Source: an uncultured Solirubrobacterales bacterium
Lineage (GTDB): Bacteria > Actinomycetota > Thermoleophilia > Solirubrobacterales > 70-9
Reading direction: 5' to 3'
Assembly (NCBI GenBank): GCA_963758845.1
Contig: CAVWWX010000001.1
Span: forward strand, 45,067 to 109,066
Length of the DNA: 64,000 bases
Positions 42,944 through 60,672 of the stretch are shown here, piece by piece. The notes under the pieces are model-generated. The model did no database searches. It saw only the letters and a list, made by a program, of their open reading frames with translations, and was not told the origin of the DNA. Position 1 is the stretch's first letter. Each line of letters begins with the position of its first letter. The translations under genes and the position numbers were made by a program.

Positions 42944-43549
<606 letters not shown>

Positions 43550-43590
43550 CGCCGGCGCAGAGCGGACGGGGCCCATCCCGGGCTCCGCTT

Positions 43591-43625
43591 GGCCTGCCGC
43601 GCCTGTAAGGTACGCGCGGCAGGCC
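43591..43625 (+). terminator. strong hairpin after sodA (terminator-like, no U-tract)
   Basis: ggcctgccgcgc (43591-43602) pairs with gcgcggcaggcc (43614-43625): 12-bp perfect stem. Confidence 0.5.
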
Positions 43626-43652
43626 ATTGAATCGAGCAAGGGGAGGGTCGGC

Positions 43653-45641: not shown

Positions 45642-45994
45642 GGGCCGCCGCGCTGGCTTGCGCCCTGGGCGCGTTGGCGCTCGGGGCGGGCTGCGGGCCC
45701 GAGGACGACAGCTCGGCCGCCGGCGAGCCCGAGCTGCTGGGCGAGCGGCCGGGCAGGCTCACCTGCACCGAGTGGAACGCGGGCACCCCCGAGCAGCGCC
45801 GGGGCACGATCGACCAGCTCACCATGCTCGCCGGGGCCAATGCCAACCCCGAGGAGGTCGGCCCAAACCGCACCCTCTCTGACGAGGACGCCTACGAGGC
45901 GCTCGACACGACCTGCTCGCGCAACCTCGCCCGCGGCTTCCTCCTCTACGAGATCTACAACCGAGCGGCTGCGTTCTCGTTCGAGGAGTCCTAG
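45614..45994 (+). CDS. small putative lipoprotein (copy B1)
   Basis: GTG 45614, 28 nt inside the A1 3' end; [27 protein letters not shown] lipobox-like; paralog of 46008-46409. Confidence 0.6.
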   Translation: MRGLHRQALRAAALACALGALALGAGCGPEDDSSAAGEPELLGERPGRLTCTEWNAGTPEQRRGTIDQLTMLAGANANPEEVGPNRTLSDEDAYEALDTTCSRNLARGFLLYEIYNRAAAFSFEES

Positions 45995-46007
45995 GGCGCG
46001 GCTGGGC

Positions 46008-46409
46008 TCAGCTCTCGCCCTCGGCGATGTCCTGGAGCGGCTTGAACGCGGCGGCGCGCGCGTACATCACGTGCAGCCGGTAGCCCAGCGCCCTCGCCTC
46101 GTCGCACCCGTTCTCGAAGACCTCCATCGCCTCGTCGTCGCTGAGCGCCGAGGCGGCGACGCCCGCGTCCTCGCGGTTCACCTGGCTGCGGATGTCCTCG
46201 ATCGTCGCGAGCTTCTGCTCCTCGCTCGCGGCGACCCAGTCCCGGCACTGCACCAGCTGCGCGACCGACCCGCCGAGCTCCTGGCCGACCGGTTCGGCCT
46301 CCTCTTCGTCGCCGGCGCCGCAGCCCGTCGCCGCCAGCGCCACGATCAGCGCCAGGCAGGCGGAGGCCGAAGCCGCGCGGCTAGGGCGTCGGCCCGAGAT
46401 CGACCTCAC
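46008..46409 (-). CDS. small putative lipoprotein (copy B2)
   Basis: GTG 46409 behind GGGAG, 29 nt inside the A2 3' end; ...CLALIVALAATGC lipobox; shares C.[DE]W...LSD[ED][ED]A...RAAAF with B1. Confidence 0.7.
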   Translation of the reverse strand: MRSISGRRPSRAASASACLALIVALAATGCGAGDEEEAEPVGQELGGSVAQLVQCRDWVAASEEQKLATIEDIRSQVNREDAGVAASALSDDEAMEVFENGCDEARALGYRLHVMYARAAAFKPLQDIAEGES

Positions 46410-48552
46410 CGGCCAGCTCCCGGTAGTACTGGGTGATCCGCTGCGCCTCGGGCGTCTTCGCCAGGGCGCGCATCGTCTGCTCCTGGGCGCGCTGATCGGC
46501 GCGGGCCGCCGTCGAGCCAGGCTGCGAGGGCATCTCGTACCAGTAGCAGCCCCCGTCGCCGGCGGTGCCGCTCTCCCACTCGGCGAAGCACTCGAGCAGC
46601 AACACGCCCTTGGCGCCGTAGACGGGGGAGCCGGTGCTCGTGGTGCAGTCCTCGGGCAGGAAGCCGGGCGTCGAGGTCCCCGCCATCGGGTCCAGCGGCG
46701 GGTCGCCGGTGAGGCTGGCGCGGGTGCCGTCGGGCCCGGTGTTGTCGGGCCAGCAGTTGCCGTCGTTGGTGGGAAACTCGTCCCACCAGAAGTCGACGCC
46801 GTTCGGGAGCTGGTCCGGTGCGTCGCCGCCGGTCAGCCCGGTCTGGTTGCCGAACTTGGTCAGCCCGGGGTGTCGCTTGAAGGCGCTCGGTACCTCGCCC
46901 ATCCGGTTGCCGGCGTAGCGGTTGTCGCATGAGGTCGACGCGGAGCCGTCGCCTGACGGGAAGCCGTCGACCGGCGCCACGAGGCAATGGATCTCGCTGT
47001 CGACGTTCCCCTCGGCCTCGCCGGCGAGCTCGTCGGGGATCGCGACCAGCAGCGTGCCGTGACGCCAGTTGTCGAACACCCGGTTGTTCGCGAAGACGCC
47101 GTCGTTCATCCCCGGCCACATGATCCCGGTGCCGATCGCCTGCGGTACCAGCGGCTCGAACTCGTTCTCGGGGTCGTAGACGTCGAGGTTGTTCGAGTAG
47201 AACCAGTTGTTGTCGACCTTCATCCCGTCGGACGGGAAGCCAGGGTGCCCCGGCGCCGAGATCGTGTCGCTGGTGAGGCCGTTGGCGTTGCCGTAGAAGC
47301 GGTTCTGCGTGACCCGCACCGAGTTGCCCATGGACCCGGAGTAGCCCATGGACGAGCCGTGGAGGTCGCACTTCTTGATCACCGTGTTGTAGCGCTCGTC
47401 CGGGTAGAACGACTCGTCGCGGAACTCGCCGGTCTGCGGCGCGGCGCCCGGATAGACCACCGCGTCGCCGGAGCCGAATCCGTCGCACCGCTTGACCACG
47501 TTGTGGTCGGTGGTGAAGGAGAGGTGGCCGTAGTCGGCGTTCCAGAAGAACTTCACCTTGTCGAGCAGGATCCCGTCGGTCTCCTCGGTGTAGAAGCCGT
47601 GCTCCTTGGCGCCGCGCATGAGGAAGTTGCGGCCGACGAACCCGTCCGAACGGTCGGTGCGCATCACGACGTGCTTCGCGTAGCAGGGGTTGGCGGGACC
47701 ATCCTCGGCCGCCAGGCATTCCTCGGCCGGGGTATCGCCGCCGGGACGGGCGCCGGGCTTGTCGGGATCTAGATAGCCCTTGCCGGCGTCCAGCAGTACG
47801 TCCTCGGGCCGCACGCCCGAGCCCTCGATCTGAAGGTTGCAGCGGATGCAGCGGCCAAGCTCCTGCTCGGGGATGCCGTGGCGATCGGGATCCGGGGTGG
47901 CGAGCGGCTCGCCCTTCACGGCCCGGCCCTGGACGTAGATCAGGTTCTGGTCGTTGGGACAGGTCGCCTGGTACTCGTAGCGACGGCGTCATCGCGCCCG
48001 ACTGGTCCTCCTGGAGCAGCGACGGATCGCACTGTGGGGTCGTTCACCGGCGACTTGCGCGAGCGCGGCTCCGTGTAGCGGCCGGGCATGATCACGATCC
48101 GGTCGTTGTTGCTGCGAGTCATCCACCGCCGCCTGGACGGCGTGGTAGCGGCAGCGGTCGGCGAAGGTGCGGTTCAGCTGCCGCATGTTCTCGGCCTTCT
48201 GCTCCCCGTACGTGGTCTTGGGCCGGCTGGGCCGCAGGCGGAAGCCGTTGGTCTCGGCGCGGTCGATCGCGCGCATCGCCAGCCGCAGCGACTCTTCGCC
48301 GCGCTCGCACACTACCCGCACGTCGCCCGGGCCCTGCCCGCTGACGGCCGAGGCCAGGCAGCGAGCCTTCGGGACCGCTCCGCCTGCGGCCGGGGAGACC
48401 GAGGTGTCGGGGGCGGGATCAGGCCAGTAGGAGGGACGCTCGAGGTGGCCGAGGGCGATCGCGGGGAGCGCGAGCGAGGCCGCGACCATGGCCCCGGCGA
48501 TGGTGGGCCGGCGCGCCGTCGGTCGCCTCTTGTCGCTGGTCCTACCCCTCAC
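46381..48552 (-). pseudogene. secreted parallel beta-helix protein (copy A2), three +1 frameshifts near 48114, 48035 and 47984
   Basis: GTG 48552 behind GAAGGAGA; ...[20 protein letters not shown]; homology to A1 moves through frames 0, 2, 1, 0 (NNDRIVIMPGRY / QCDPSLLQEDQ / RYEYQATCPNDQ). Confidence 0.8.
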
Positions 48553-48760
48553 GCTGCGTCTCCTTCGTCGGTCTGCCCCGTTTGCCCCGCGGCGCTGGGC
48601 CGCTGGAGGGCCGGGCGACCCTAACAACGGGTTTTCCCGCGCGCGCCGGTTCCCCGCGTCGAGCGGCGGCCGCCATCCGGCCTGAGGGTCGCTTAACCCG
48701 AACTCAACGTTTTCGCGCGAGATCTGGCTTCAAAGAGCCATTTGTGGGAACGGTTGTGCT

Positions 48761-48790
48761 TTGACACCCCGCTCTGACCGGTGCTAGGTT
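48761..48790 (+). promoter_or_regulatory. candidate promoter of the mce cluster
   Basis: TTGACA (48761-66), 18 nt, TAGGTT (48785-90), 62 nt upstream of GTG 48852. Confidence 0.35.
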
Positions 48791-48851
48791 CGCCTCGCGC
48801 CCGGGGGAACGCGCAAGGTCAAGCCTACGACGTGTACGGGTACGGGAGATA

Positions 48852-50290
48852 GTGAAAGGATCAACTGCCTTCGGCAGGATCGCTGCGCTGGTGGCGCTGG
48901 GAGTCGCCGTCGTGGCCGTCGTGCTGCTCCTGAGCGACGGTGACAAGCCCTACCAGGTCACCGGCGAGTTCGAGAGCGCCAGCCAGCTCGTGCCCGGGAA
49001 CGAGGTGATCGTCGGCGGGGTCGCGGCCGGCTCGGTGAAGGAGATCGAGCTCGGCGAGGATGGCCAGGCCCTGGTGACCTTCACGGTCGACGATGCCTAC
49101 GCGCCGCTTCGCCGGGGCACCGTCGCAACGGTTCGCTCCTACTCCCTGTCCGGCGTCGCCAACCGCCAGGTCCAGTTGACCATCCCCCCGAGTTCCGAGG
49201 GGGAGAGGAGATCCCGTTCGGCGGCAAGCTCAGTCAGTCCGAGACCGTCTCCGAGGTCGACCTCGACGAGATCTTCAACACCCTCGACAAGCAGACCGTC
49301 GCCGACTTCAAGCGCGTGATCCAGGGCTTCGACCAATCCTACGCCGGGGTCTCTGAGCAGGCCAACGCCGGCACCAAGTACGCCAACCCCTTCCTCTCGA
49401 CCTCCCGCGGCCTGTTCAGCGAGCTCACCTACGACGAGCGCGCCCTGGAGCGCCTGATCGTCGACACCTCAAAGCTCTCCGGCGCCCTCGCCGAGCGCTC
49501 CCCCGACATCTCGGCCCTGGTCGGAAACCTCGACCAGATGATGGGCGCGATCGGCTCTGAGAAGCTGGCCCTCGGCGACGCGGTCTCGAAGTTCCCCGAG
49601 TTCATGCGCGACGCCAACACCACCTTCGTCAACCTCCGCGCCGCGCTCGATGACGTCGACCCCCTGGTCGAGGCCTCAAAGCCCGCCGCCCAAGAGCTGC
49701 AGCCGTTCATGGCGAGCCTGCGGGTCGCGGTCGCAGACGCGGTGCCGACGATCAAGGACCTCGACCAGATCGTCCGCCGCTCGGGTCAGGACAACGACCT
49801 CGTCGAGCTCACCCGCGACCAGGTCGGCCTCGCCCGCAAGGCGATCGGCTCCGGCGCCCCTGACTGCGGCGGCGGCGACGACCTCTCCGACCCCGCCAAC
49901 GGCGCCGGTGACGGCGACTTCTCCCAGGGCGCCTTCGGCGAGTCCGCCTGCGCCCTCGCGAACGGCACCCCGACCCTGGCGATGTTCCGCCCCTACGCGC
50001 CGGAGCTGGTGGGCTGGTTCGACGACTTCTCGCACCCGGGCACGTTCGATGCCCTCGGCGCCGTCGGCCGCATCGGCACCTCCTTCAACCAGTTCTCCGT
50101 CTCCGCCGCCGGCGTGCCCAACCTCGGCGAGCCCGCCAGCCCCTCCGAGGCCTTCGTCCAGAGCGACCTCGACGAGAAGTGCCCCGGCGCCGAGGAGCGC
50201 CCGCTTCCCTCCAACCTCGGCGATGGCGGCAACCCGTTCGTCGAGGCCGGCGTCAACTGCGACCCCGACGACGTGCTGGACGAGCCATGA
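48852..50290 (+). pseudogene. Mce/MlaD-family protein 1 of 6, -1 frameshift at a G-run near 49199-49207
   Basis: N-terminal TM segment plus MCE domain (YQVTGEFESASQLVPGNEVIVGGVAAGSV) in frame 0; continues EEIPFGGKLSQSETVSEVDLDEIFNTLD in frame 2. Confidence 0.8.
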
Positions 50291-52122
50291 GGCGGATCGG
50301 CTTCATCGCAACGCTCGTGGCCACCGTCGCCGCCGTCTTCGCCGTCTCGGCGCCCGCCGACGACGAGCGCACCTACCTGATCGAGATGTACAACGCCTTC
50401 GGCATCGTCGAGGGCTCGGATGTCCGCGTGGCGGGGGTCAACGCCGGCGCCGTCACCGCGCTGGACGTGAACTCCAGGAAGCGCGCGGTCGTCGAGGTCT
50501 CGCTCAGCGGGCCGCTGGCCGTGCTGGGCGAGGACACCACCTGCGCCACCGAGCCGCAGTCGCTGATCGCGGAGTACTTCATCGACTGCCAGCCCGACGG
50601 GCCGGAGATCGAGTCCAGCGGGGACCCCGAGGACCCCGACGTGCCCGCCGAGGCCGTCAGCCAGACCGTTCAGAACGACCTCGTCAACAACACGCTGCGC
50701 GAGCCGTTCAAGCGCCGGCTCCAGCTGCTGATCAACGAGTTCGGAACGGCGCTGGCCGGCAACTCGGAGAACCTCAACGAGGCGATCCGGCTGGGCGCCC
50801 CCGCCCTGACCTCGCTGGAGAAGGTGCTGGATGTCATGGGCGACCAGAACTCGATCATCCGCGACCTCAACGTCGACTCGGACAAGATCATCGGCCGCCT
50901 CACCGCGCGCCGTGACGACGTGGTCAAGTTCATCCAGGAGGCGCGCGACACAGCCGCCGCCTCGGCCGAGCGCCGCGACGACCTTTCGACCGACTTCGCG
51001 CTGCTGGACGACTTCCTGGCCGAGCTCAACCCCACCCTCGTCGAGCTCGAGGCGATGGCGGGCGCCAGCACCCCCGTGTTCTCCGACCTCCGGGCGTCCG
51101 CACCCGGCCTGAACGAGCTGGTCACGAGCCTGCCGGGCTTCAACCAGGCGACCGAGCGCTCGCTCGACAGCCTGGGCGAGGCGGGGGTAGTGGGCCAGCG
51201 GGCCCTCCGCCGCGGCAAGGAGGAGATCGACGCTCTCGCTGAGTCCGGCAGGAACGCGACCTCCGTCGGCGAGATGCTGGCGGACCTCTTCCGCGACCTC
51301 GACGACCCGGATCGGGCCATCGAGGTCGATCAGCGCGCCGCCGACCGCACGAACCGTGACTCCCCCACCGGGTACACGGGCCTCGAGGGCCTCCTCAACT
51401 ACGGCTACTACCAGGCCGCCTCGACCAACCAGTTCGACGACGTCGGGCACCTGCTCCAGTTCAGCCTGTACTACATCTTCTCCGGACCCTGCGGCGAGTG
51501 GACAGCGGGCCGCAACCCCTCGACCGGCGAGATCGAGCTGCCGAACAAGGCTGGTGGGACCACGTCCAACCCGACGCTCACGGGATCCCCGGCGAACCAG
51601 ATCGCGAACTGCGTCGGCTGGCTTGGCCAGAACCAGCCCGAGCTCACCGCCGGCGACGACCTGCCGGGCCTCGGCCTCTACGACCAGGCGGTCTGCGACA
51701 CCGACGACGACGGCGACTACAGCGAGGTCAAGCCCGCCCAGGCCGTCTCGCTGTGCGAGCCGATCGGCTCGGGCAAGGCCGGCGACGGCGATTCGGCGAC
51801 TCAGCGCCGTGGCGGCGCCGCTGGCGGCAACGGCGGCGGCCTGCCGGGCGGCGGGCTGCCGGGCGGCGGGCTGCCCGATCTGCCCCTGCCGGGCGGCGGC
51901 AACCTCCCCAACGACCTCGACGACCTGCTGGATCTGCCGCCCAACGTGATCAACGGGCTCCCGGACCGCCTTCAGGACCGCCTGGAGGACCTCCGCAACG
52001 GCCTCGGCGGGGGCGGCGGCGGGGGCGGCGGCGGTGGCGGCGGTGGCGGCGGGGGAAGCGGCGGCGGCGGTGGCGGCGGCGGCGGCGCGGGCGACCTCCT
52101 CGACTACCTCCTGGGGCCGTGA
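50287..52122 (+). CDS. Mce/MlaD-family protein 2 of 6 with Gly/Pro-repeat C-terminus
   Basis: ATG 50287 overlaps the previous TGA; TM segment plus YLIEMYNAFGIVEGSDVRVAGVNAGAV; tail GGGLPGGGLPGGGLP and a 27-residue Gly tract. Confidence 0.85.
   Translation: MRRIGFIATLVATVAAVFAVSAPADDERTYLIEMYNAFGIVEGSDVRVAGVNAGAVTALDVNSRKRAVVEVSLSGPLAVLGEDTTCATEPQSLIAEYFIDCQPDGPEIESSGDPEDPDVPAEAVSQTVQNDLVNNTLREPFKRRLQLLINEFGTALAGNSENLNEAIRLGAPALTSLEKVLDVMGDQNSIIRDLNVDSDKIIGRLTARRDDVVKFIQEARDTAAASAERRDDLSTDFALLDDFLAELNPTLVELEAMAGASTPVFSDLRASAPGLNELVTSLPGFNQATERSLDSLGEAGVVGQRALRRGKEEIDALAESGRNATSVGEMLADLFRDLDDPDRAIEVDQRAADRTNRDSPTGYTGLEGLLNYGYYQAASTNQFDDVGHLLQFSLYYIFSGPCGEWTAGRNPSTGEIELPNKAGGTTSNPTLTGSPANQIANCVGWLGQNQPELTAGDDLPGLGLYDQAVCDTDDDGDYSEVKPAQAVSLCEPIGSGKAGDGDSATQRRGGAAGGNGGGLPGGGLPGGGLPDLPLPGGGNLPNDLDDLLDLPPNVINGLPDRLQDRLEDLRNGLGGGGGGGGGGGGGGGGGSGGGGGGGGGAGDLLDYLLGP
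52006..52092 (+). repeat. coding (GGN)n microsatellite (G17-S-G9-A-G)
   Basis: ggc/ggg/ggt codon run inside the 3' end of mce gene 2. Confidence 0.9.
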
Positions 52123-52126
52123 CCCG

Positions 52127-53881
52127 ATGAGCCGACGCAGCGCCACTCAGTCACTCGCAGCCTCGCCGACGATGGTCGGCGCGGTCACCGTGCTGATCGC
52201 GATCGTCGCGGTCTTCCTGGCCTACAACGCCAACAACGGGCTCCCGTTCGTGCCCGTCTACCGCGTCTCGGTGGAGGTCCCGAACGCTGCCCGCCTGGGC
52301 ACCAACAACGAGGTGCGGATCGGCGGCACCCGGGTCGGCGTCATCGAGTCGATCGAACCCGTCAGCGAGGGCGACACCACCGCGGACACGGGCGAGACCG
52401 TGGCGGCGGATGCCACCGAAGACACCGGCGGCGTCAAGGCGCTGTTGAACCTGAAGCTCGACAAGAGCGCGCAGCCGATTCCCCAGGACTCGGTCTTCCG
52501 CGTCCGCTACAAGTCGGCCTTCGGCCTCAAGTACCTGGAGATCGTCCGGGGCAACGGCGACCCGGTGCCCGAGGGCTACGCGTTCGACGGCACCGACGAC
52601 GGCGCCACCTGCCCCCTGCCCGAGACGGCGGACGAGCCTCCCGCCCAGGGCGCCGGCGCCAACGGCTGCTTCCAGGAGCAGACCGAGTTCGACGACATCG
52701 CGAACACCTTCGACACCGAGACCCGCGACAACGCCCGCCGCAACCTGACCGGGTTCGGCGACGGCTTCGCGGCCCGCGGCTACTCCCTGAACATCGCGAT
52801 CGAGAACCTGCGCCCGCTGATCGAGAACCTGAAGCCGGTGGCCGACGTCCTCGTCGAGCCCACCACGCGGTTCGCCCGGTTCTTCCCCGAGCTCGGCGAC
52901 GCCGCGCGCATCGTCGCCCCGGTGGCCGACGAGAACGCCGAGCTGTTCACGTTCATGGCGACCACCTTCACCGCGATCTCGTCCGACCCCGAGGCGCTCA
53001 AGGAGACGATCTCGGAGGGCGTCCCGACGCTCCAGACCGGGATCGACACGCTGCCCAGGCAGGTCCCCTTCCTGCGTGACTTCACCACCCTGTCCCGCGC
53101 GCTCCAGCCGGGTGTCGCCGACCTCCGGATCACCCTGCCGACGCTGAACGACGCGATCGACGTCGGCACCCCGGTGCTGAACGACTCGGTGGGTCTCAAC
53201 AGCCGGCTCGAAGGCGTCATGCGCGAGCTGCTGGACCTGGTCGAGCAGCCCAGCACCCGGACCGCGCTGCTGCGCCTGAAGGACACGTTCGACACCGCGG
53301 AGCCGCTCGCCCGCTACGTGGTGCCCGCCCAGACCAACTGCAACTACTGGAACTACTGGTTCACGTCGGTGCCCAACGCGCTGTCGGACGAGAGCACGAT
53401 CGGCTACACCTTCCGCCAGGCGCTGACGAACTACCCGCCGGGGCCGCAAGCGTTCAACCTCCCGAACGGTGACCCGCTCGTGGTCGACGCCGAGGCCGAG
53501 GCGCCGATGGCCGGCTACTCCGGCATCCAGTCGAACGGCCAGATCGGTACAACCGCCCCGCCAGATCCCGGCGTCACCTATCAGTCGGACGACTTCGCGC
53601 CGTACAAGATCCCGATCACCTACGCCCCCGTCTACGGGCCCGCGGGCCAGAACCTGCCGGGGCAGGACTTCGACGACTGCCAGGGCGGCCAGGTCGGCCT
53701 GCCGCTGGGCCAGCTGGGGCCACCGGGGAATGGCCAGCCGCTGAGCAACCCCGCGATCGCCGTGCCTGACCTGCCGGGGTCGCGGGGCCCGACCACCCTC
53801 TTCTGGAACCAGGACTCCACCCGCGAGCTCCGCGACACCCGCGTCAACAGCCGCCAGCCACAGAGTTGGGACGGTCTCTGA
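52127..53881 (+). CDS. Mce/MlaD-family protein 3 of 6
   Basis: ATG 52127; TM segment MVGAVTVLIAIVAVFLAY, then YRVSVEVPNAARLGTNNEVRIGGTRVGVI. Confidence 0.85.
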   Translation: MSRRSATQSLAASPTMVGAVTVLIAIVAVFLAYNANNGLPFVPVYRVSVEVPNAARLGTNNEVRIGGTRVGVIESIEPVSEGDTTADTGETVAADATEDTGGVKALLNLKLDKSAQPIPQDSVFRVRYKSAFGLKYLEIVRGNGDPVPEGYAFDGTDDGATCPLPETADEPPAQGAGANGCFQEQTEFDDIANTFDTETRDNARRNLTGFGDGFAARGYSLNIAIENLRPLIENLKPVADVLVEPTTRFARFFPELGDAARIVAPVADENAELFTFMATTFTAISSDPEALKETISEGVPTLQTGIDTLPRQVPFLRDFTTLSRALQPGVADLRITLPTLNDAIDVGTPVLNDSVGLNSRLEGVMRELLDLVEQPSTRTALLRLKDTFDTAEPLARYVVPAQTNCNYWNYWFTSVPNALSDESTIGYTFRQALTNYPPGPQAFNLPNGDPLVVDAEAEAPMAGYSGIQSNGQIGTTAPPDPGVTYQSDDFAPYKIPITYAPVYGPAGQNLPGQDFDDCQGGQVGLPLGQLGPPGNGQPLSNPAIAVPDLPGSRGPTTLFWNQDSTRELRDTRVNSRQPQSWDGL

Positions 53882-55632
53882 TGCGATCCTCGGACTCGAA
53901 GCGGCGCATGCCCAACTGGGCGATCGGCCTGATCCTGATCGTCGTCGTCGGCGTCGGCTCGGTGCTGGCCTACACCAAGAAGCTTCCGTGGGGGGATCCC
54001 TACGAGGTCCAGGCCGTGTTCGCGAACGCGCAGAACCTGCGCCCGAAGGCGCCGGTGCGGATCGCCGGCATCAACGTCGGCGAGGTCACCTCGGTCGAGC
54101 ACCTGACGATGGACGACCCCGCGCTTCAGGCCCAGGCCGACGCCCAGGAGACCCCGCTGCCGGAGGAGGGTGCGGGGCAGGCCGCGGCCCTGGTGACGAT
54201 GCAGCTCAACGACGAGGCGCTCCCCCTCCACGAGGACGCTCAGTTCCAGCTGCGGCCGCGCCTGTTCCTGGAAGGCAATCTCTTCGTCGACACCAAGCCC
54301 GGCAGCCCGAACGCCCAGGCGGTCGGCGAGGACCACAGGTTCGCCGTCACGCAGACCTCCAGCTCGGTGCAGATCGACCAGGTCTTCACGACCCTCCAGT
54401 CCGACGTCCGGGCGGACCTCCAGACGTTCCTCGACCAGTTCGGCAACGCGCTGATGAAGTACGGCGGCGCGAAGGGGTTCCAGGAGCTCTACCGCTCGTC
54501 CGAGGGCGCGTTCAAGTACACGTCGCAGGTGAACGAGGCGCTCCAGGGCACCCGCACCCACGACCTCTCGGGGCTGATCGGCAACCTCGACAAGGTCGTC
54601 GCCGCGCTTGGCTCGAACGAGACCGCGCTGCAGGAGCTGGTGACCAACTTCCGGGTGGTCTCGGGTTCGTTCGCCGCCGAATCGGCCTCGCTCGAGCAGG
54701 CGATCGCGAAGCTGCCCGACGTCCTCGACGCCGCCCAGCCGGCGTTCGCGAACCTGAACGCCGCGTTCCCGCCGCTGCGCGCCTTCTCGCGCGAGGCGCT
54801 CCCGGGCGTGCGCTCGACGGCGCCGACGCTGCGAGCCGCCACGCCGCTGATCGACCAGGTGCGGCTGCTGGTCTCCGAGCCGGAGCTGCGCGGCCTGGTC
54901 GCCGACCTGCGCCCGACGATCCCCGACCTGGCCCGCCTCTCGGCGCGAACCAAGCCGCTGCTGGACGAGTTCCGCAGCGTCTCGAGCTGTTTCAACGAGG
55001 TCGTGATCCCGTGGTCGAACGACACCGTCGACCCGCCGGCCTTCTACTCGAGCAACCTGGAGCCGAAGGGCACGGTCGCCGAAGAGACGGCCTCCGGCCT
55101 CGTCGGAATCGCCAGCGAGAGCCGCTCCGGCGACGCGAACGGCCAGTACATCCGCGTCCAGGCGGGTGGCGGCGCCAACACGGTCCTGATCCCGGGAGGG
55201 GCACCCGACGGCACCGACTCGGTCGGCCTCCTGGACTTCCCGCTGCTGGGCGGCGTTCCCAGCGTGCACGGGAACACGGCTGACTCGCAGGTGCCGCAGT
55301 TCAAGCGAAACGTGGCCTGTGAGACCCAGGAGCCCCCGGACCTCGCGGCGGCGGGAGTCACCGCCGGCGACGCGGGGATGCCCTCCTCGCCGAACCCGGT
55401 CGGCCCCGAGGACCTGATCGACATCATCAACGACATCATCCCGCTGCTGCCGGCCGACGCCGCCGCGCAGCTGAGGCGCGAGTCCGCCGCCTACATCGAG
55501 GCCCAGCAGGAGGGCGACCCCGACGCGCTGGCCGAGGCGGCGCAGGGCCTGCAGGAGGCACTCCAGGAGCTCTCGCAGTCGGGTAGCGCGAAGCTGGACG
55601 AGGCGACCGCGAACACGGAGCTGGGCGGCTGA
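53881..55632 (+). CDS. Mce/MlaD-family protein 4 of 6
   Basis: ATG 53881 overlaps the TGA; WAIGLILIVVVGVGSVLAY, then YEVQAVFANAQNLRPKAPVRIAGINVGEV. Confidence 0.85.
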   Translation: MRSSDSKRRMPNWAIGLILIVVVGVGSVLAYTKKLPWGDPYEVQAVFANAQNLRPKAPVRIAGINVGEVTSVEHLTMDDPALQAQADAQETPLPEEGAGQAAALVTMQLNDEALPLHEDAQFQLRPRLFLEGNLFVDTKPGSPNAQAVGEDHRFAVTQTSSSVQIDQVFTTLQSDVRADLQTFLDQFGNALMKYGGAKGFQELYRSSEGAFKYTSQVNEALQGTRTHDLSGLIGNLDKVVAALGSNETALQELVTNFRVVSGSFAAESASLEQAIAKLPDVLDAAQPAFANLNAAFPPLRAFSREALPGVRSTAPTLRAATPLIDQVRLLVSEPELRGLVADLRPTIPDLARLSARTKPLLDEFRSVSSCFNEVVIPWSNDTVDPPAFYSSNLEPKGTVAEETASGLVGIASESRSGDANGQYIRVQAGGGANTVLIPGGAPDGTDSVGLLDFPLLGGVPSVHGNTADSQVPQFKRNVACETQEPPDLAAAGVTAGDAGMPSSPNPVGPEDLIDIINDIIPLLPADAAAQLRRESAAYIEAQQEGDPDALAEAAQGLQEALQELSQSGSAKLDEATANTELGG

Positions 55633-57014
55633 TGGCCGTCGCGATCCGAAAGCACCTGCGCGACTTCATCGCCGTGGCCGTCCTGCTGGTCGTGGCCGGC
55701 GCGGTGACCCTTTACATCTTCCAGGAGCAGCGCCTGCGCATCCCGATCCTGGAGGAGAAGCCCTTCGAGCTGAAGGCCGAGTTCGAGACGGCCCAGGCGG
55801 TCGTCCCCGGCCAGGGACAGACGATCCGGGTCGCGGGCGTCCGCGTGGGCGACGTGCAGGACGTGGCGCTCGAGAACGGCGTCGGCGTCGTGACCTTCGC
55901 GATCGACCGCGAGTACCTGCCGGTCTACCAGGACGCGACGCTTCTGATGCGGCCGACCACCGGCCTCAAGGACATGTTCTTCCAGCTCGACCCGGGCACC
56001 CAGGCCGCGGGCGAGTACGAGGAGGGCGATGTCGTGCCCGTCTCGAACACCGCGCCCGACGTGAACCTCGACGAGGTCCTCGAGGCGCTCGACTCCGACA
56101 CGCAGGCCTACCTGCGGCTGCTCCTGGTCGGCGCCGGGACGGGCCTGGAGGGCCGCGACAAGGACCTCGGCGAGGTCCTGGGCGGGCTCGGGCCGATCAA
56201 CGAGGACCTGCGCAAGCTGAACTCCAAGGTCGCGTCGCGCCAGCAGAACCTGCGTACCCTGGTTCACAACTTCAACGTCCTCACCGGCCGCATCGCCCAA
56301 GCCGACGAGGACCTGGTCGAGCTGGTCACGACGTCCAACACGGCCCTCGGCGCCATCGCCGACCAGGACCCGAGCGTGCGCCGCGCCGTCGAGCTCCTCG
56401 GCCCGACCCTGACCCAGGCCGAGTCCACGCTGAACGAGGTCTCGAACTTCGCCGCGGTCGCCGGGCCTGCGTTCAACGACCTGCGCCCGTTCGCCCGCAA
56501 CCTCGACGAGTCGAACGCCTCGCTGGAGCAGCTGGCGAACTCGGCGACCCCGGTGCTGGAGAACGAGGTGCGGCCCTTCGTCCGCGCCGCCCGCAAGCCG
56601 GTCCCGGACCTGCGCCAGGCCGCGGACCGCTACTCGAGCGCCGCGCCGCGCCTGACCACGGTCGGCAAGAAGCTCAACGTCCTGACGAACATGGCGGCGC
56701 TCAACCCGAACGGCGCCGAGCCCACGGGCACCGCCGGGCGCGACGAGGGCTTCCTGTACTGGGTCGGCTGGCTCGGGCACAACGGCAACTACATCTTCAA
56801 CACGGCCGACGGCAACGGCCCCTGGCGCCGGATCTACTTCACGGCGGGCTGCAACCAGCTGGTCAACATCCTCACCGGCGGCACCGGCGGCCTGATCCCG
56901 ACGCCACCGTCGGGCGGCGAGGAGTTCAACGCGCTCCTGCAGCAGGTCAGAGGCCTTGCCTCGGGCGTCGGCACCCTGTTCGCCGACGGAGGGTTGTGTG
57001 ATCCGGACACATGA
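55632..57014 (+). CDS. Mce/MlaD-family protein 5 of 6
   Basis: ATG 55632 overlaps the TGA; FIAVAVLLVVAGAVTLYIF, then FELKAEFETAQAVVPGQGQTIRVAGVRVGDV. Confidence 0.85.
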   Translation: MAVAIRKHLRDFIAVAVLLVVAGAVTLYIFQEQRLRIPILEEKPFELKAEFETAQAVVPGQGQTIRVAGVRVGDVQDVALENGVGVVTFAIDREYLPVYQDATLLMRPTTGLKDMFFQLDPGTQAAGEYEEGDVVPVSNTAPDVNLDEVLEALDSDTQAYLRLLLVGAGTGLEGRDKDLGEVLGGLGPINEDLRKLNSKVASRQQNLRTLVHNFNVLTGRIAQADEDLVELVTTSNTALGAIADQDPSVRRAVELLGPTLTQAESTLNEVSNFAAVAGPAFNDLRPFARNLDESNASLEQLANSATPVLENEVRPFVRAARKPVPDLRQAADRYSSAAPRLTTVGKKLNVLTNMAALNPNGAEPTGTAGRDEGFLYWVGWLGHNGNYIFNTADGNGPWRRIYFTAGCNQLVNILTGGTGGLIPTPPSGGEEFNALLQQVRGLASGVGTLFADGGLCDPDT

Positions 57015-57051
57015 TCGAGCGTGACGGACAAGCACGGGAGGTGAGCGCCTG

Positions 57052-58638
57052 ATGCAGAAGCAAGCGCCTGGCGTCGGCCGCATCCTGATCGCCGTCGGCT
57101 TCACGCTGTCGTGCTTCGGCCTGATCCTGTTCCTGTGGATCGCCTTCGGTGGCCCGATCCCGCTGAAGCCCGAGAGCTACAAGGTCACCGCCTACTTCCC
57201 CGAGACGACCACCTTGGCCCGTGAGTCCGACGTGCGGATCGGCGGCGTCTCCGTGGGCAAGGTCAAGGAGATCCAGCTCGCCCCGCAGGAGTTCCGCGTG
57301 AACGGGAACGACACGACCGAGGCGACGATGGAGATCAGGCCCGAGTTCGCGCCGATCTCCGAGGACACCCGGGCGATCCTGCGCCAGAAGACGCTGCTGG
57401 GCGAGACCTACATCGAGCTGACCCCCGGCAGCGAGCCTGGCGAGCAGGCGGCGCCCGTGTCGCTGGGCGCCGCCGCGAACGTCTCCGACGCCGACTCCGA
57501 GGGCATCGCCACCGTCGAGGAGGGTGGCACCCTGGGCGTCGAGCAGACCCAGGACGCGACGCAGATCGACGAGATCTTCAACGCGCTCGACGAGCAGACG
57601 CGCGAGTCCTTCCAGAGCTGGCTCGCCAGCTCCTCGGATGCGATCGAGGGGCGGGGGCTCGACCTGAACGACGCGCTCGGCAACCTGGGCCCGTTCGTCA
57701 GCGACGCCGCCGACCTGCTGGAGATCCTGAACCGGCAGAAGGTCGCCCTGAAGGGCCTGGTGCGCGACACCGGCTCGGTGTTCGAGGCCCTGACCGCGCA
57801 GGACCAGGCGCTCGCCGGCGTGATCACGGGCTCGAACGAGACCTTCGAGGCCCTCGCGAGCGAGGACGAGGCGCTGGCCGAGTCGTTCCAGATCCTGCCC
57901 ACGTTCGAGCGCGAGTCCCGCCTGACGTTCGAGCGGCTGGACGAGTTCCAGGCCGACACGCGGCCGCTGGTCCAGGACCTGATCCCGGTCGCCAACGACC
58001 TGTCGCCCACGCTGGCGTCGGTGCGGCGCCTGTCGCCCAACCTCGAGAGCCTCTTCGGCAAGCTCGAGGTGCTGATCGACGCCAGCGTCGAGGGGCTGCC
58101 CGCGCTCGAGCGCACGCTCAACGGGCTGGGCCCGGTGCTCGAGGAGCTCGACCCGTTCCTCGCGAACCTGAACCCCGTCATCCGCTACCTCGAGTTCCAG
58201 AAGACCACTGTCACCGACTTCCTCGCCGGCCCGGGCGTGGCGCTGGCGAACTCGATCGACCCGGTCGCTTCCGACCAGGACGCGCCGCGCCACTACCTCC
58301 GCCAGCTCGGGTACCTGGGCGCCGAGACCCTGGGCGTCCACCCGGTCCGCCTGTCGACGAACCGCTCGAACGGCTACCTCGCCCCCGGTGCGCTGACGAG
58401 CTTCACGGCGGCGTCCAACGGCATGTTCCCCAGCTTCGACTGCCGCAACCTCGACTACAGCGAGGGCACCACCCCGGGCTCGCCCGAGGCGACCAGCGAG
58501 GAGATCCACACCGCCGACGACCCGGATCCGGACGCCAACGCGCCGGTCGGGGTCAGCTTCGCGCCCTGCATCATCGAGGAGCCCTTCCCCGGCGGCTTCT
58601 CCGACACCCGCTTCCCGAACCTCTTCGCCGACCCCTAG
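57052..58638 (+). CDS. Mce/MlaD-family protein 6 of 6
   Basis: ILIAVGFTLSCFGLILFLWIAF, then YKVTAYFPETTTLARESDVRIGGVSVGKV. Confidence 0.85.
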   Translation: MQKQAPGVGRILIAVGFTLSCFGLILFLWIAFGGPIPLKPESYKVTAYFPETTTLARESDVRIGGVSVGKVKEIQLAPQEFRVNGNDTTEATMEIRPEFAPISEDTRAILRQKTLLGETYIELTPGSEPGEQAAPVSLGAAANVSDADSEGIATVEEGGTLGVEQTQDATQIDEIFNALDEQTRESFQSWLASSSDAIEGRGLDLNDALGNLGPFVSDAADLLEILNRQKVALKGLVRDTGSVFEALTAQDQALAGVITGSNETFEALASEDEALAESFQILPTFERESRLTFERLDEFQADTRPLVQDLIPVANDLSPTLASVRRLSPNLESLFGKLEVLIDASVEGLPALERTLNGLGPVLEELDPFLANLNPVIRYLEFQKTTVTDFLAGPGVALANSIDPVASDQDAPRHYLRQLGYLGAETLGVHPVRLSTNRSNGYLAPGALTSFTAASNGMFPSFDCRNLDYSEGTTPGSPEATSEEIHTADDPDPDANAPVGVSFAPCIIEEPFPGGFSDTRFPNLFADP

Positions 58639-58716
58639 GCCGGCGAGCCCGGCGAGCGTGGCCGGCGCCTCCTCTGCGCATAGGATGCTCGCCAGCCGCA
58701 TGGAGGAGGGAGGACG

Positions 58717-59133
58717 GTGGCGCTGTTCAAGGACGCGGACGAGGTGTATGCCACGCTCGGGAAGCTGTTCTCGGATCTCGCCGAGGACGAGGTGCTCTCG
58801 GCGCGCTTCAGCGAGGCGAACACGATCGTGCGGTATGAGTACTCCGACCCGGACGCCGCGATCACGGTCCGCCTGGAAGAGGGCCAGCCGGCGGTGGTGG
58901 AGTTCGGCGAGACCGAGATGGAGCCCGAGGTGACGATGTCGATGAGCGCGGACACCGGGCATCGCTTCTGGCTCGGGGGCGTGAACGTGACCGCGGCCCT
59001 GGGCCGCGGCGAGATGCGCGCGGTCGGGCCCGTCGCGAAGATCCTGAAGCTGGTCCCGCTGGCGAAGCCGGTGTTTCCGCGCTACCGCGCCCAGCTCGAG
59101 GCGCAGGGGCGCCAGGATCTGGTGGGGGCCTGA
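58717..59133 (+). CDS. SCP2 sterol/lipid-carrier domain protein
   Basis: GTG start; 138 aa; ...DAAITVRLEEGQPAVVEFGE...ADTGHRFWLGGVNVTAALGRGEMRAVGPVAKILKL (SCP2-like pattern). Confidence 0.7.
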   Translation: MALFKDADEVYATLGKLFSDLAEDEVLSARFSEANTIVRYEYSDPDAAITVRLEEGQPAVVEFGETEMEPEVTMSMSADTGHRFWLGGVNVTAALGRGEMRAVGPVAKILKLVPLAKPVFPRYRAQLEAQGRQDLVGA

Positions 59134-59143
59134 GGAGAGCCGG

Positions 59144-59848
59144 ATGGGCGCGAAGGACGACGCCGCGGCCTGGGCCGAGACGGTGCGGGCCGTCGGCAAG
59201 CGCAGGGAGCTCACGTACGACGAGGTCGGCGGCCTGAACCCGCGAGGTGGCCCTGCCGCGCTGTGCCCGGGTGGCACGAACCGGCTGACCGGGCAGCTCT
59301 CGGACGGGTTCTGGGGCGCCTCGTGCGACGCCGACGAACGCGAGGAGGGCTCGCTGTTCTCGAAGGCGGTCATCCCGCACGCGATCCTGGCCAAGGCCCA
59401 CGTGCCGGATCTGGCGCAGGCGATGCCACCGTTCAACGTGGAATCGCTCGAGCGCAGCGCCGAGGACGTGATCGAGCGGCGCACCAGCCGCCACAAGGTG
59501 CAGTTCGAGAGCATCGAGTTCAACCAGCGGTTCCTGGCGACGGTGCCCAGCGAGTACGACCCGGTGGCCCTGCGCGAGATGTTCGGGCCGGGGTTCCTGG
59601 ACTGGGTGACCACGATCGACCGCGAGGTCGACTTCGGCGTGTCCGAGGGGCAGATCTACTTCCACTGGCGGCTTCGCGAGCGCACTCGCGAGGAGTACGA
59701 GGCGGCCCTCGACTCCGGCGCCGGGCTCTTCACCCGCGTCTACCGCGAGGTGGAGGAGCACGGCATGCACACCTACCAGCCCGGCCCCTGGCACGCCGGC
59801 CTCGAACCCTTCCCGGACGCCAAGGGTGAGCCTGCTCAGTCCGGGTAG
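59144..59848 (+). CDS. hypothetical protein (234 aa), only weak resemblance to DUF3137-type proteins
   Basis: Balanced composition, high GC3; ...[37 protein letters not shown]...; no TM or signal peptide seen. Confidence 0.6.
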
Positions 59849-60450
59849 TCCGGGTCGCCGGGGAGCACGACGCGCCAGTCCTCGCGGCTCCCGAGAACCT
59901 TCGGCAGGATCGGCTGGACGGCGCGCTCGCGGGCCGCCGCCATTACCTCCTGCGCCGTCGCGAACCCGGACAGCTCCTCGAGGTTTCGGACCGTCGGGAA
60001 GACGATCTCCAGCTCGTCGCGCGAGTGGCGCTCGAGGGCCTCGGCCGGCGCGATCCACGCGACCTCGGTGATCTCCGAGGCGTCCGGCTCCGGCTTGGCG
60101 TGGGGCGGCGCGATCGCGACGTAGAAGCGGGTGTCGAAGCGGACCGAGACGGGCTCGGGCGTGATCCAGCGCGACCACTCGACGAGGCCGGCGATGTCGG
60201 GCAGCTCGATGCCCGCCTCCTCGGCCAGCTCCCGCGCCGCGCACACACGGTGCGCCTCCTCCTCGGTGTGGGCGGCCAGCTCGTCGGCGTCGACCGCGCC
60301 GCCGGGGAAGACCCAGACCCCGGGCATGAAGCTCGCCGCGTCGGTCCGGCGGGCCAGCAGGACCTCGAGCCCGCGACTGGAGTGCCGTCCCCCGCGCCGC
60401 AGCAGCACAACCGTCGCAGCCGGGCGTGGTGTGACCGGTTCAGCGCTCAT
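59836..60450 (-). CDS. NUDIX hydrolase
   Basis: Nudix box GGAVDADE...[11 protein letters not shown]. Confidence 0.85.
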
Positions 60451-60486
60451 CCGCGGGGAATCTATCCGCGATACCCTGCCGCGGCG

Positions 60487-60672
60487 ATGGAGGCCGGAAC
60501 TCAGACCAAGCAGCTCTGGGTCTGCACGTCGTGCGGGTTCATCTACGACCCCGACGAGGGCGACCCCGACGGCGGCATCCCGCCCGGCACCGCCTTCGAC
60601 GACATCCCCGACAGCTGGTTCTGCCCCGTCTGCGGCGCCCGCAAGGCGGACTTCGAGCCCTACCAGGACTAG
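60487..60672 (+). CDS. rubredoxin
   Basis: 61 aa; [46 protein letters not shown] (two CxxC pairs). Confidence 0.93.

What the first reader, a model, noticed from the sequence alone, without database searches (positions are those of the whole stretch)
48852..58638. Six-gene mce cluster with no yrbE permease or mkl ATPase genes in the neighbourhood
- Six consecutive genes each encode an N-terminal TM helix followed by an MCE/MlaD domain. They are tightly coupled, with ATGA/TGATG overlaps at 50287, 53881 and 55632.
- Established actinobacterial mce operons carry two yrbE (MlaE-like) permease genes directly upstream of mceA-F.
- Here the 300 nt upstream (48553-48851) is non-coding with a promoter-like TTGACA-18-TAGGTT, and the next upstream gene is the divergent beta-helix pseudogene.
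- No permease or ABC ATPase is found at all in the window, which extends about 49 kb upstream and 5 kb downstream of the cluster.
- The proteins are long (460-611 aa) with Cys-, Gly- and Pro-rich tails.

Either the hexamer borrows YrbE and Mkl encoded elsewhere, or it works in a transporter-independent way.
Basis: partly seen in the sequence, partly recalled or inferred. Interest (0 to 1): 0.62.

Follow-up and report, generated by a model that had tools for sequence, protein, structure and literature searches.

The report
Mce lipid-transporter genes split from their motor
Six real mce genes sit here without their usual permease and ATPase genes, but those genes lie intact elsewhere in the genome, and this split layout is the rule across this family of soil actinobacteria, so one ABC motor probably serves several Mce hexamers.

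Summary
Six tandem single-MCE-domain genes occupy 48852-58638. The first is split by one frameshift at a G run. No MlaE permease or ABC ATPase lies anywhere in the window.

The genome is a Solirubrobacterales MAG of 2.83 Mb. It carries two such sextets, neither next to yrbE. It has one free-standing yrbEA-yrbEB-mceG-MMPL operon and one lone MlaE.

In sister families of the order, the same operon context holds a sextet between mceG and MMPL. In this family the sextets lie elsewhere.

- In 16 well-assembled relatives, 24 of 27 sextets are unlinked from yrbE.
- None of 80 related loci has MlaE within about 10 kb.
- Sextets outnumber yrbE pairs, by up to 4 to 2.

So the layout is the lineage norm. 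I found no paper describing it.

Best reading (0.7): the hexamer docks on the trans-encoded YrbEAB-MceG motor, which several hexamers share. The window's sextet belongs to a family-specific clade with its own conserved promoter. It is followed by a cytoplasmic SCP2 protein and a TtfA-like protein.

Earlier first-reader notes of this scan describe similar orphan sextets on other DNA. This is a new variant of a known kind, of moderate interest.

The parts
48692..48708 (+). Conserved upstream motif CTTAACCCGAACTCAAC (consensus CTTAAC-N3-AACTCAAC); possible regulator site
   Evidence: Conserved in 13 orthologous upstream regions whose proteins are only 60-85% identical. Unique in the genome at up to 1 mismatch. 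Function not tested.
48751..48790 (+). Conserved promoter: CGGTTGTGCTTTGACA (-35 TTGACA at 48761-48766), 18-nt spacer, TAGGTT (-10, 48785-48790)
   Evidence: Sequence read. Both hexamers and the extended -35 are conserved in the alignment. The E. coli-style scan does not call it, because TAGGTT matches only the actinobacterial TANNNT pattern.
48852..50290 (+). mceA, split into two frames (48852-49319 and 49316-50290) by a single-base frameshift near the G run at 49199-49203
   Evidence: MlaD domain in the N-terminal piece and a sub-threshold Mce4_CUP1 match in the C-terminal piece. Frames differ. Orthologues L019-L022 and L057 are contiguous.
50287..52122 (+). mceB (611 aa), TM helix + MCE domain + helical region + poly-Gly/Pro tail
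   Evidence: Pfam MlaD 1.1e-7. TIGR00996 9.8e-18, below its cut-off. ATGA overlap with mceA.
52127..53881 (+). mceC (about 584 aa)
   Evidence: Pfam MlaD 9.3e-9. ATG 5 nt after the mceB stop.
53881..55632 (+). mceD (583 aa)
   Evidence: Pfam MlaD 3.2e-11. TGATG overlap with mceC.
55632..57014 (+). mceE (460 aa)
   Evidence: Pfam MlaD 3.4e-7 and Mce4_CUP1 1.4e-6. TIGR00996 9.4e-25 over model positions 3-283 of 291. The AF2 model gives a TM helix (2-32), beta domain (45-142) and long helices (146-355), but at low confidence.
57052..58638 (+). mceF (528 aa), with a highly conserved TM helix GFTLSCFGLILFLWIAFGG
   Evidence: Pfam MlaD 2.8e-17. Best PDB sequence hits are Mce1 chains 8fed_B and 8fed_E. 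The TM segment is 63% identical to yrbE-attached sextets, against about 38% over the whole protein.
58717..59133 (+). SCP2-family lipid-carrier protein (138 aa), no signal peptide, probably the seventh gene of the unit
   Evidence: Pfam SCP2 5.9e-5, above its cut-off. Sequence read. Found directly downstream of the sextet in about 50 of 80 related loci.
59144..59848 (+). Conserved 234-aa soluble protein from no described family, with a TtfA-like fold; probably the eighth gene of the unit
   Evidence: No Pfam or NCBIfam hit. 52 syntenic homologues, 54 invariant columns. AF2 mean pLDDT 83.7. The only significant PDB fold match is the mycobacterial TMM transport factor TtfA, 6t84: prob 1.00, E 3.3e-3, TM 0.48/0.61.

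Best explanation
This is the needle half of a split Mce lipid-uptake ABC transporter. The unit has eight genes: mceABCDEF, an SCP2 gene and a TtfA-like gene. It is transcribed from its own conserved promoter.

The six Mce proteins would form a heterohexamer, each anchored by one TM helix. The hexamer would dock on the YrbEA/YrbEB permease heterodimer, energised by MceG. Those three proteins are encoded in trans by a free-standing yrbEA-yrbEB-mceG-MMPL operon at G000:C2, about 2.597 Mb. That one motor would be shared with at least the genome's second orphan sextet (C2, about 1.02 Mb). The cytoplasmic SCP2 and 234-aa proteins would plausibly take over the imported lipid.

**Shown:**
- the gene content and domains
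- the existence and orthology of the trans-encoded motor
- the synteny that links that motor to a sextet
- the lineage-wide unlinked layout
- sextets outnumbering yrbE pairs

**Inferred:**
- physical assembly of this hexamer with that motor
- sharing of the motor between hexamers
- the lipid substrate
- the role of SCP2 and the 234-aa protein
For: 1. **Full motor elsewhere.** A MlaE pair lies at C2:2597569-2599048. A MlaF/MceG-type ATPase follows it, with Walker A present and one frameshift. Best PDB hits are 8fed_I YrbE1A 1.1e-35, 8fed_J YrbE1B 1.6e-33 and 8fed_G MceG 8.6e-55.
2. **Synteny.**
   - Five genomes of families f4, f5 and f6 have this arrangement: a divergent 231-aa gene, then yrbEA-yrbEB-mceG-mceA..F-MMPL.
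   - Family f1 (G000, G002, G005, G011, G018) and G040 (f4), G030 (f2) and G031 (f3) keep the same context, with mceG followed directly by MMPL. The exception is G011, whose fetched stretch shows no MMPL.
   - YrbEA/B stay 66-81% identical across these families, while Mce proteins are 35-45% identical. The unlinked motor is therefore under strong constraint.
3. **Counts.**
   - In 16 well-assembled genomes, 24 of 27 sextets have no MlaE within 10 kb.
   - None of 80 related loci has MlaE in the flanks. About 65 of them cover at least 3.2 kb upstream of mceA.
   - G002, G140 and G160 have 12 MlaD to 2 MlaE. G004 and G005 have 24 to 4.
4. **A one-to-one case.** G018 is a complete single-contig genome. 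Its only MCE genes are one SCP2-type orphan sextet. Its only MlaE genes are the free yrbEAB-mceG-MMPL module, present as two copies with identical match scores. Each is the other's only candidate partner.
5. **Genome-level co-occurrence.** In a class sample of 151 genomes, MlaE and MlaD occur together in about 23. MlaE occurs alone in 2-3, MlaD alone in 1, and neither in about 124. In family f1, all 12 genomes have both, and wherever the listed matches show both positions they are unlinked.
6. **TM helix.** The MceF TM helix is as conserved between this clade and yrbE-attached sextets (63%) as the MCE core is. That fits a shared intramembrane partner.
7. **No alternative partner.** No PqiA/LetA gene is in the genome. 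No membrane protein is conserved next to the sextet.
Against: - No direct evidence of assembly exists. All support is comparative.
- G026 is 100% complete by marker genes, in 10 contigs. It keeps six intact mce ORFs, but its assembly has no MlaE and no MceG orthologue; the best ABC hit is 40% identical.
- The conserved promoter motifs of this sextet occur nowhere else in the genome. There is therefore no sign of co-regulation with the yrbE operon.
- The MceE TM helix is not specially conserved, at 34%.
- Both mceA here and mceG at the motor locus carry a frameshift in this assembly.
Confidence: 0.7

Rival explanations
1. The hexamer works without an ABC motor, for example as a passive lipid conduit or envelope scaffold held in the membrane only by its six TM helices.
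For: - G026 retains an intact sextet, yet its assembly lacks yrbEAB and mceG at 100% marker completeness.
- The sextet has its own promoter and is never linked to yrbE in its sampled history.
Against: - Every other adequately assembled genome with a sextet has yrbEAB-mceG. In G038 the yrbEB gene sits at contig ends.
- The yrbEAB module occurs as pairs with identical match scores in G018, G025 and G169. Repeats of this kind are prone to drop out of assemblies, so the absence in G026 may be an artefact.
- In G018 the highly conserved motor would have no MCE partner at all unless it is this sextet type.
- The downstream SCP2 and 234-aa proteins lack export signals. That implies cargo reaches the cytoplasm, which needs a permease.
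Confidence: 0.1
2. The sextet pairs with the lone MlaE permease, encoded after a GntR regulator gene at G000:C2:2268647-2269228 and acting as a homodimer, not with YrbEAB.
For: A third MlaE gene with no MCE gene nearby exists in this genome. Lone copies are also seen in G010, G024, G025 and G040.
Against: - The lone MlaE is not found in G002, G005 or G018, which all carry the SCP2-type sextet.
- It is found in G024, G025 and G040, which lack that sextet type.
- No ATPase is adjacent to it.
Confidence: 0.1
3. The cluster is a decaying relic. mceA is a pseudogene, and the loss of yrbE linkage reflects a dead system.
For: mceA is frameshifted in this assembly.
Against: - The break lies at a homopolymer, in an assembly with many single-base frame breaks in conserved genes.
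- mceA is contiguous in all five close orthologues.
- All six genes keep coding-type GC3 of 0.82-0.98.
- The eight-gene unit and its promoter are conserved over dozens of MAGs at 50-85% protein identity.
Confidence: 0.05
4. The yrbE genes were simply missed at this locus, through mis-annotation or a mis-assembly junction.
For: None found.
Against: - The HMM search of all six frames of the genome finds no MlaE on contig C1.
- The 300-nt upstream gap is a conserved promoter region.
- Independent assemblies of dozens of MAGs show the same layout.
Confidence: 0.02

Closest known systems
Mycobacterial Mce1/Mce4 lipid importers (M. smegmatis Mce1 cryo-EM structure, PDB 8FED/8FEE/8FEF; PMC9882608)
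   Same: - Six paralogous single-MCE-domain proteins, each with an N-terminal TM helix, an MCE domain and long helices.
- A YrbEA/YrbEB heterodimer and a MceG ATPase are encoded in the genome. These give the best PDB sequence matches.
   Different: - The sextet is not in one operon with yrbEAB. Here yrbEAB is fused to mceG and an MMPL gene instead.
- Sextets outnumber yrbE pairs.
- No Mam/Mas genes follow the sextet; an SCP2 protein and a TtfA-like soluble protein do.
- The host is generally taken to be a monoderm actinobacterium without a mycomembrane (PMC10665443 calls the order monoderm).
Sharing of MceG, and of the orphaned oMce1A and Omam proteins, between Mce systems in mycobacteria (PMC9882608, PMC13492129, PMC9947336)
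   Same: There is precedent for Mce components that are encoded away from the operon and used by more than one Mce complex.
   Different: In mycobacteria, only the ATPase, single Mce paralogues and accessory proteins are known to be shared or orphaned. Here the whole hexamer is separated from the permease, and the permease pair itself would have to be shared.
Canonical eight-gene actinobacterial mce operon (Casali and Riley 2007, PMC1810536) and the Streptomyces/Nocardia form with a linked Mkl ATPase
   Same: Sister families of the same order carry yrbEA-yrbEB-mceG-mceA..F(-MMPL) in one block. The ancestry is therefore the same.
   Different: That paper concluded that all operons derive from one eight-gene cluster 'without shuffling'. 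It reported mce genes 'almost always' downstream of a yrbE pair. In this family the type-1 sextets seen are all unlinked.
E. coli PqiABC and LetAB (MCE proteins that work without an ABC transporter)
   Same: MCE-domain proteins that are not encoded next to MlaE or MlaF.
   Different: Those systems use multi-MCE-domain polypeptides and a PqiA/LetA membrane partner. Here each protein has one MCE domain, and no PqiA-family gene is in the genome.

Membership tests
Actinobacterial Mce ABC lipid transporter (Mce1-4 type) | Six tandem paralogous mce genes, each with an N-terminal TM helix and one MCE (PF02470) domain | tested here: met
   PF02470 scores above its cut-off in all six genes. Hydrophobic N-termini are present. 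mceA is split by one frameshift.
Actinobacterial Mce ABC lipid transporter (Mce1-4 type) | Long helical region after the MCE domain (the TIGR00996 / Mce4_CUP1 region that forms the needle) | tested here: met
   - TIGR00996 matches at 1e-17 to 1e-29 in the three proteins scanned (B, E, F). In MceE the match covers model positions 3-283 of 291. All are below the curated cut-off.
- Mce4_CUP1 gives sub-threshold hits in three of the six proteins.
- The AF2 secondary structure of MceE shows helices over residues 146-355, at low pLDDT.
Actinobacterial Mce ABC lipid transporter (Mce1-4 type) | Two yrbE (MlaE-family) permease genes immediately upstream in the same operon | tested here: not met
   No MlaE on contig C1. 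None within about 10 kb in 80 related loci.
Actinobacterial Mce ABC lipid transporter (Mce1-4 type) | YrbEA and YrbEB paralogues encoded in the genome | tested here: met
   The pair lies at C2:2597569-2599048. Best PDB hits are YrbE1A and YrbE1B respectively.
Actinobacterial Mce ABC lipid transporter (Mce1-4 type) | Mkl/MceG-type ATPase encoded in the genome | tested here: met
   The ATPase lies directly downstream of yrbEB. Its best NCBIfam model is MlaF. The G002 orthologue, 95% identical to it, has MceG 8fed_G as its best PDB hit at 8.6e-55. Walker A is present, with one frameshift in this assembly.
Actinobacterial Mce ABC lipid transporter (Mce1-4 type) | Mam/Mas accessory membrane proteins downstream of mceF | tested here: inconclusive
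   The two downstream genes are soluble, an SCP2 protein and a TtfA-like protein. No dedicated Mam model was available to scan the rest of the genome.
Actinobacterial Mce ABC lipid transporter (Mce1-4 type) | Physical assembly of MceA-F on YrbEAB-MceG | not testable with these tools
   No multimer prediction or experiment is available. Only comparative inference applies.
Pqi/Let-type ABC-independent MCE systems | PqiA/LetA-family membrane partner, and several MCE domains in one polypeptide | tested here: not met
   PF04403 was not found in the genome, which is 87% complete. Each protein has one MCE domain.
MlaFEDB-type system | A single mlaD gene forming a homohexamer, encoded with mlaE and mlaF | tested here: not met
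   All 12 MlaD-domain genes of the genome lie in two sextets. The lone MlaE has no MlaD or ATPase beside it.

The most novel reading that the evidence does not exclude
These orphan Mce hexamers can operate with no YrbE/MceG motor at all. That would make them an ABC-independent single-MCE heterohexamer conduit, feeding lipid to cytoplasmic SCP2/TtfA-like carriers by another route. The one relative that keeps an intact sextet with no detectable yrbEAB or mceG (G026) hints at this.
Probability: 0.1. Interest if true: 0.75.

Novelty: new variant of a known kind. Interest (0 to 1): 0.45.

Why it matters
The Mce field treats the eight-gene yrbEAB-mceABCDEF block as the unit of function. Only the ATPase and a few accessory proteins are known to be shared.

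A whole family of soil actinobacteria in which hexamer genes are uncoupled from the permease genes, and outnumber them, implies something different. A YrbEAB-MceG motor may accept interchangeable MCE hexamers. Transporter specificity and number would then be set by the needle module alone.

This gives a natural system for asking how a hexamer recognises its permease. It also ties two uncharacterised soluble proteins, an SCP2 protein and a TtfA-like protein, and an MMPL gene to Mce function in bacteria without a mycomembrane. The role of MlaD/MlaE homologues in that group has been called unknown (PMC10665443).

Tried and rejected
- **Shared regulon.** The two conserved upstream motifs were searched genome-wide with 1 mismatch. 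They occur only at this locus. There is thus no evidence of co-regulation with the yrbE operon or the second sextet.
- **Rfam.** No family matches 48300-48950.
- **Consensus promoter and terminator scan.** It finds nothing over 48400-60600. The promoter call therefore rests on conservation alone.
- **AF2 model of MceE.** Mean pLDDT is 49, too poor for a fold search. Only its secondary structure was used.
- **Lone MlaE as the dedicated partner.** Rejected on phyletic pattern.
- **PqiA/LetA-type partner.** Not found.
- **G038 as a second MlaE-less genome.** Rejected, because its yrbEB gene ends sit at contig ends.
- **Literature.** Phrase searches for mce clusters lacking yrbE found nothing relevant.
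Full report
**What is in the window**

The region is about 70% G+C. I picked real frames by third-position G+C. Six + strand genes fill 48852-58638. Each has a hydrophobic N-terminus and a Pfam MlaD domain above the gathering score. TIGR00996 ('MCE family protein') and Mce4_CUP1 match the region after the domain, below their cut-offs.

An AF2 model of MceE was built on 66 homologues. Its confidence is low (mean pLDDT 49). Its secondary structure shows the expected order: a TM helix, a beta domain, then about 200 residues of long helices. The best PDB sequence hits of MceF are chains of the M. smegmatis Mce1 complex.

Gene 1 is broken. 48852-49319 and 49316-50290 are in different frames, and the change falls at a G run near 49199-49203. 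In all five close orthologues the two halves are in one frame. The assembly carries many single-base frame breaks in conserved genes (earlier notes). I therefore read the break as an assembly error.

**Is the motor really missing here?**

Yes. A six-frame HMM search of the whole genome (2.83 Mb, 3 contigs, 87% complete) finds three MlaE genes, all on contig C2. It finds 12 MlaD domains: the six here and six at C2:1018595-1026064. The only ABC_tran hits on contig C1 lie outside the window. No PqiA/LetA gene was found.

**Where the motor is**

At C2:2597569-2599048, on the - strand, lie two adjacent MlaE genes. A MlaF-type ATPase follows, then an MMPL transporter and a 242-aa protein. The ATPase has Walker A and one frameshift.

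Best PDB matches to the M. smegmatis complex are:
- first permease: YrbE1A, 1.1e-35
- second permease: YrbE1B, 1.6e-33
- ATPase: MceG, 8.6e-55, tested on the G002 orthologue, which is 95% identical to it

The third MlaE is a lone gene after a GntR regulator gene, with no ATPase or MCE gene nearby. The second sextet is preceded by ROK and RsmI-like genes, again with no yrbE.

**The organism and its relatives**

Related loci come from uncultured Solirubrobacterales MAGs.

- None of 80 related loci has a MlaE homologue within the fetched flanks.
- In about 65 of them the flank covers at least 3.2 kb upstream of mceA.
- About 50 carry the same SCP2 gene and 234-aa gene right after mceF.

I then read coordinates for both families in 16 well-assembled genomes of the order. 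24 of 27 sextets have no MlaE within 10 kb. Three are attached.

Sextets outnumber yrbE pairs in many genomes. MlaD to MlaE is 12:2 in G002, G140 and G160, and 24:4 in G004 and G005. The canonical ratio is 3:1 (PMC1810536, Table 1).

In a class-wide sample of 151 genomes, both families are essentially confined to this order. They co-occur at genome level: about 23 genomes have both, 2-3 have MlaE only, 1 has MlaD only, and about 124 have neither.

**The key synteny result**

Five genomes of three sister families have this arrangement: a divergent 231-aa gene, then yrbEA-yrbEB-mceG-mceA..F-MMPL. These are G032 and G036 (f4), G033 and G028 (f5), and G029 (f6).

The window's family (G000, G002, G005, G011, G018) keeps exactly this context, and so do G040 (f4), G030 (f2) and G031 (f3). 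There, mceG is followed directly by MMPL. The one exception is G011, whose fetched stretch shows no MMPL. The free-standing operon is therefore the same operon without its sextet.

YrbEA and YrbEB stay 66-81% identical across families, while Mce proteins are 35-45% identical. The unlinked motor is conserved.

A second, divergent operon type also exists in some genomes of the window's family f1: G005 and G009 of its own genus, and G016. It has yrbEAB directly followed by six mce genes, only 25-35% identical to the window's, with no ATPase.

**Which sextet is which**

Trees of MceF (quick) and MceE (careful) agree.

- **The window's clade.** The window's sextet falls in a well-supported clade (99 SH-aLRT; 100/99). 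All nine of its members come from family f1 and all are unlinked. Most are followed by SCP2.
- **The attached clade.** All attached sextets fall in another clade (99; 100/99). That clade also contains the genome's second sextet and the unlinked sextets of f2 and f4.
- **How often the split happened.** Unlinking therefore happened more than once. The window's sextet type has been unlinked throughout its sampled history.

**Why I think it uses the trans-encoded motor**

- G018 is a complete single-contig genome. Its only MCE genes are one SCP2-type sextet. Its only MlaE genes belong to the free yrbEAB-mceG-MMPL module. G011 is the same, with the other sextet type.
- The MceF TM helix (GFxLSCFGLLLFLWxxFGG) is 63% identical between this clade and attached sextets. 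That is as high as the MCE core, against about 38% overall. The MceE TM helix shows no such excess.
- The lone MlaE does not track this sextet type.
- No other conserved membrane protein flanks the sextet. The conserved upstream neighbour in orthologues is sodA. In the window, sodA lies at 42944-43549, and two beta-helix modules sit between it and the promoter.

**Against**

G026 is 100% complete in 10 contigs. It has six intact mce ORFs, but its assembly holds no MlaE and no MceG orthologue. This may be an assembly gap. The module occurs as pairs with identical match scores in G018, G025 and G169, and in G038 it sits at contig ends. I cannot show that, however.

The sextet's promoter motifs are unique in the genome, so co-regulation is not supported.

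**Own promoter and accessory genes**

Upstream regions from 13 orthologous loci share CTTAAC-N3-AACTCAAC and CGGTTGTSCTTTGACA-N18-TAGGTT. No Rfam family matches the region.

The SCP2 protein has no signal peptide. The 234-aa protein has no family hit, but it is very conserved, with 54 invariant columns in 53 sequences. It folds confidently (pLDDT 83.7). Its only significant PDB match is TtfA, the mycobacterial partner of MmpL3 in trehalose monomycolate transport: prob 1.00, E 3.3e-3, TM 0.48/0.61. This is a lead, not a family assignment.

**What is known**

Reviews and the original survey describe an eight-gene module, with mce genes 'almost always' downstream of a yrbE pair and 'without shuffling' (PMC1810536; PMC13492129). 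Sharing is documented for MceG, oMce1A and Omam proteins (PMC9882608).

One phylogenomic paper notes multiple MlaD/MlaE homologues of unknown function in Solirubrobacterales. It does not describe their arrangement in the passages I read (PMC10665443). My phrase searches found no description of unlinked sextets.

First-reader notes of this scan describe similar orphan sextets on other DNA. One of them is preceded by a ROK gene, like this genome's second sextet.

**Verdict**

The 'borrowed motor' reading is well supported by synteny and counts, but it is unproven physically. The feature is a lineage-wide gene-order variant of a known transporter, not a new kind of system. It is moderately interesting because it implies that one YrbEAB-MceG motor accepts several different hexamers.

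Noticed in passing
window 59144-59848: The conserved 234-aa soluble protein from no described family gives a confident AF2 model (pLDDT 83.7). Its only significant PDB match is TtfA (6t84), the MmpL3-associated trehalose monomycolate transport factor. It accompanies the sextet even in loci that lack the SCP2 gene (L041, L044, L047, L065, L066, L088, L097).
   Followed up: partly
window 48692-48708: The motif CTTAACCCGAACTCAAC lies about 55 nt upstream of the -35 element. It is conserved in 13 orthologous loci and unique in the genome. It is a candidate operator or activator site for an unknown regulator.
   Followed up: partly
L017 7855-10202 (G000:C2:2267854-2270201): A GntR regulator gene is followed by a lone MlaE permease gene and two small ORFs (132 and 139 aa) with no family hit. 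No ATPase or MCE gene is nearby. Lone MlaE copies recur in G010, G024, G025 and G040.
   Followed up: partly
L016 6464-7487 (G000:C2:2596463-2597486): The MceG-type ATPase has an acidic N-terminal extension of about 100 aa. It is split by one frameshift just after Walker A (..LLYPG / DSGD..). This is probably another assembly error.
   Followed up: partly
G018:C1:2000586-2002017 and 2235300-2236731; G025:C1:5107-6676 and 1850522-1852091; G169:C5:1041958-1043489 and 1266325-1267855: The yrbEAB module occurs as two copies with identical scores on opposite strands, about 225 kb to 1.8 Mb apart, in three relatives. This is either a large inverted duplication or an assembly artefact. It may explain why the module drops out of some assemblies.
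   Followed up: no
L117 (G026:C5:1280000-1297000): One relative at 100% marker completeness keeps six intact mce ORFs. Its assembly has no MlaE and no MceG orthologue.
   Followed up: partly
L103, L111, L121 (G005:C2:1286-1300 kb, G016:C8:212-229 kb, G009:C10:160-175 kb): A second, divergent mce operon type has yrbEAB directly attached and no ATPase. Its proteins are 25-35% identical to the window's. It coexists with the unlinked sextets in some genomes of the same family, two of them (G005, G009) in the window's genus.
   Followed up: partly
L016 3039-6411 and 9377-10072: An MMPL (RND) transporter and a 242-aa protein follow mceG in most of these loci. A 231-aa protein with no family hit is divergently transcribed from yrbEA in most of them, whether or not the sextet is inside the operon.
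   Followed up: no
window 42944-48627: In orthologous loci, sodA lies directly upstream of the mce promoter. In the window, two beta-helix gene modules (43653-45641 and 46381-48627) sit between sodA (42944-43549) and the promoter.
   Followed up: no
window 51760-52122: The MceB tail has 50 Gly in its last 120 residues, including a long (GGN)n run. Such tracts are also error-prone in long-read assemblies.
   Followed up: no
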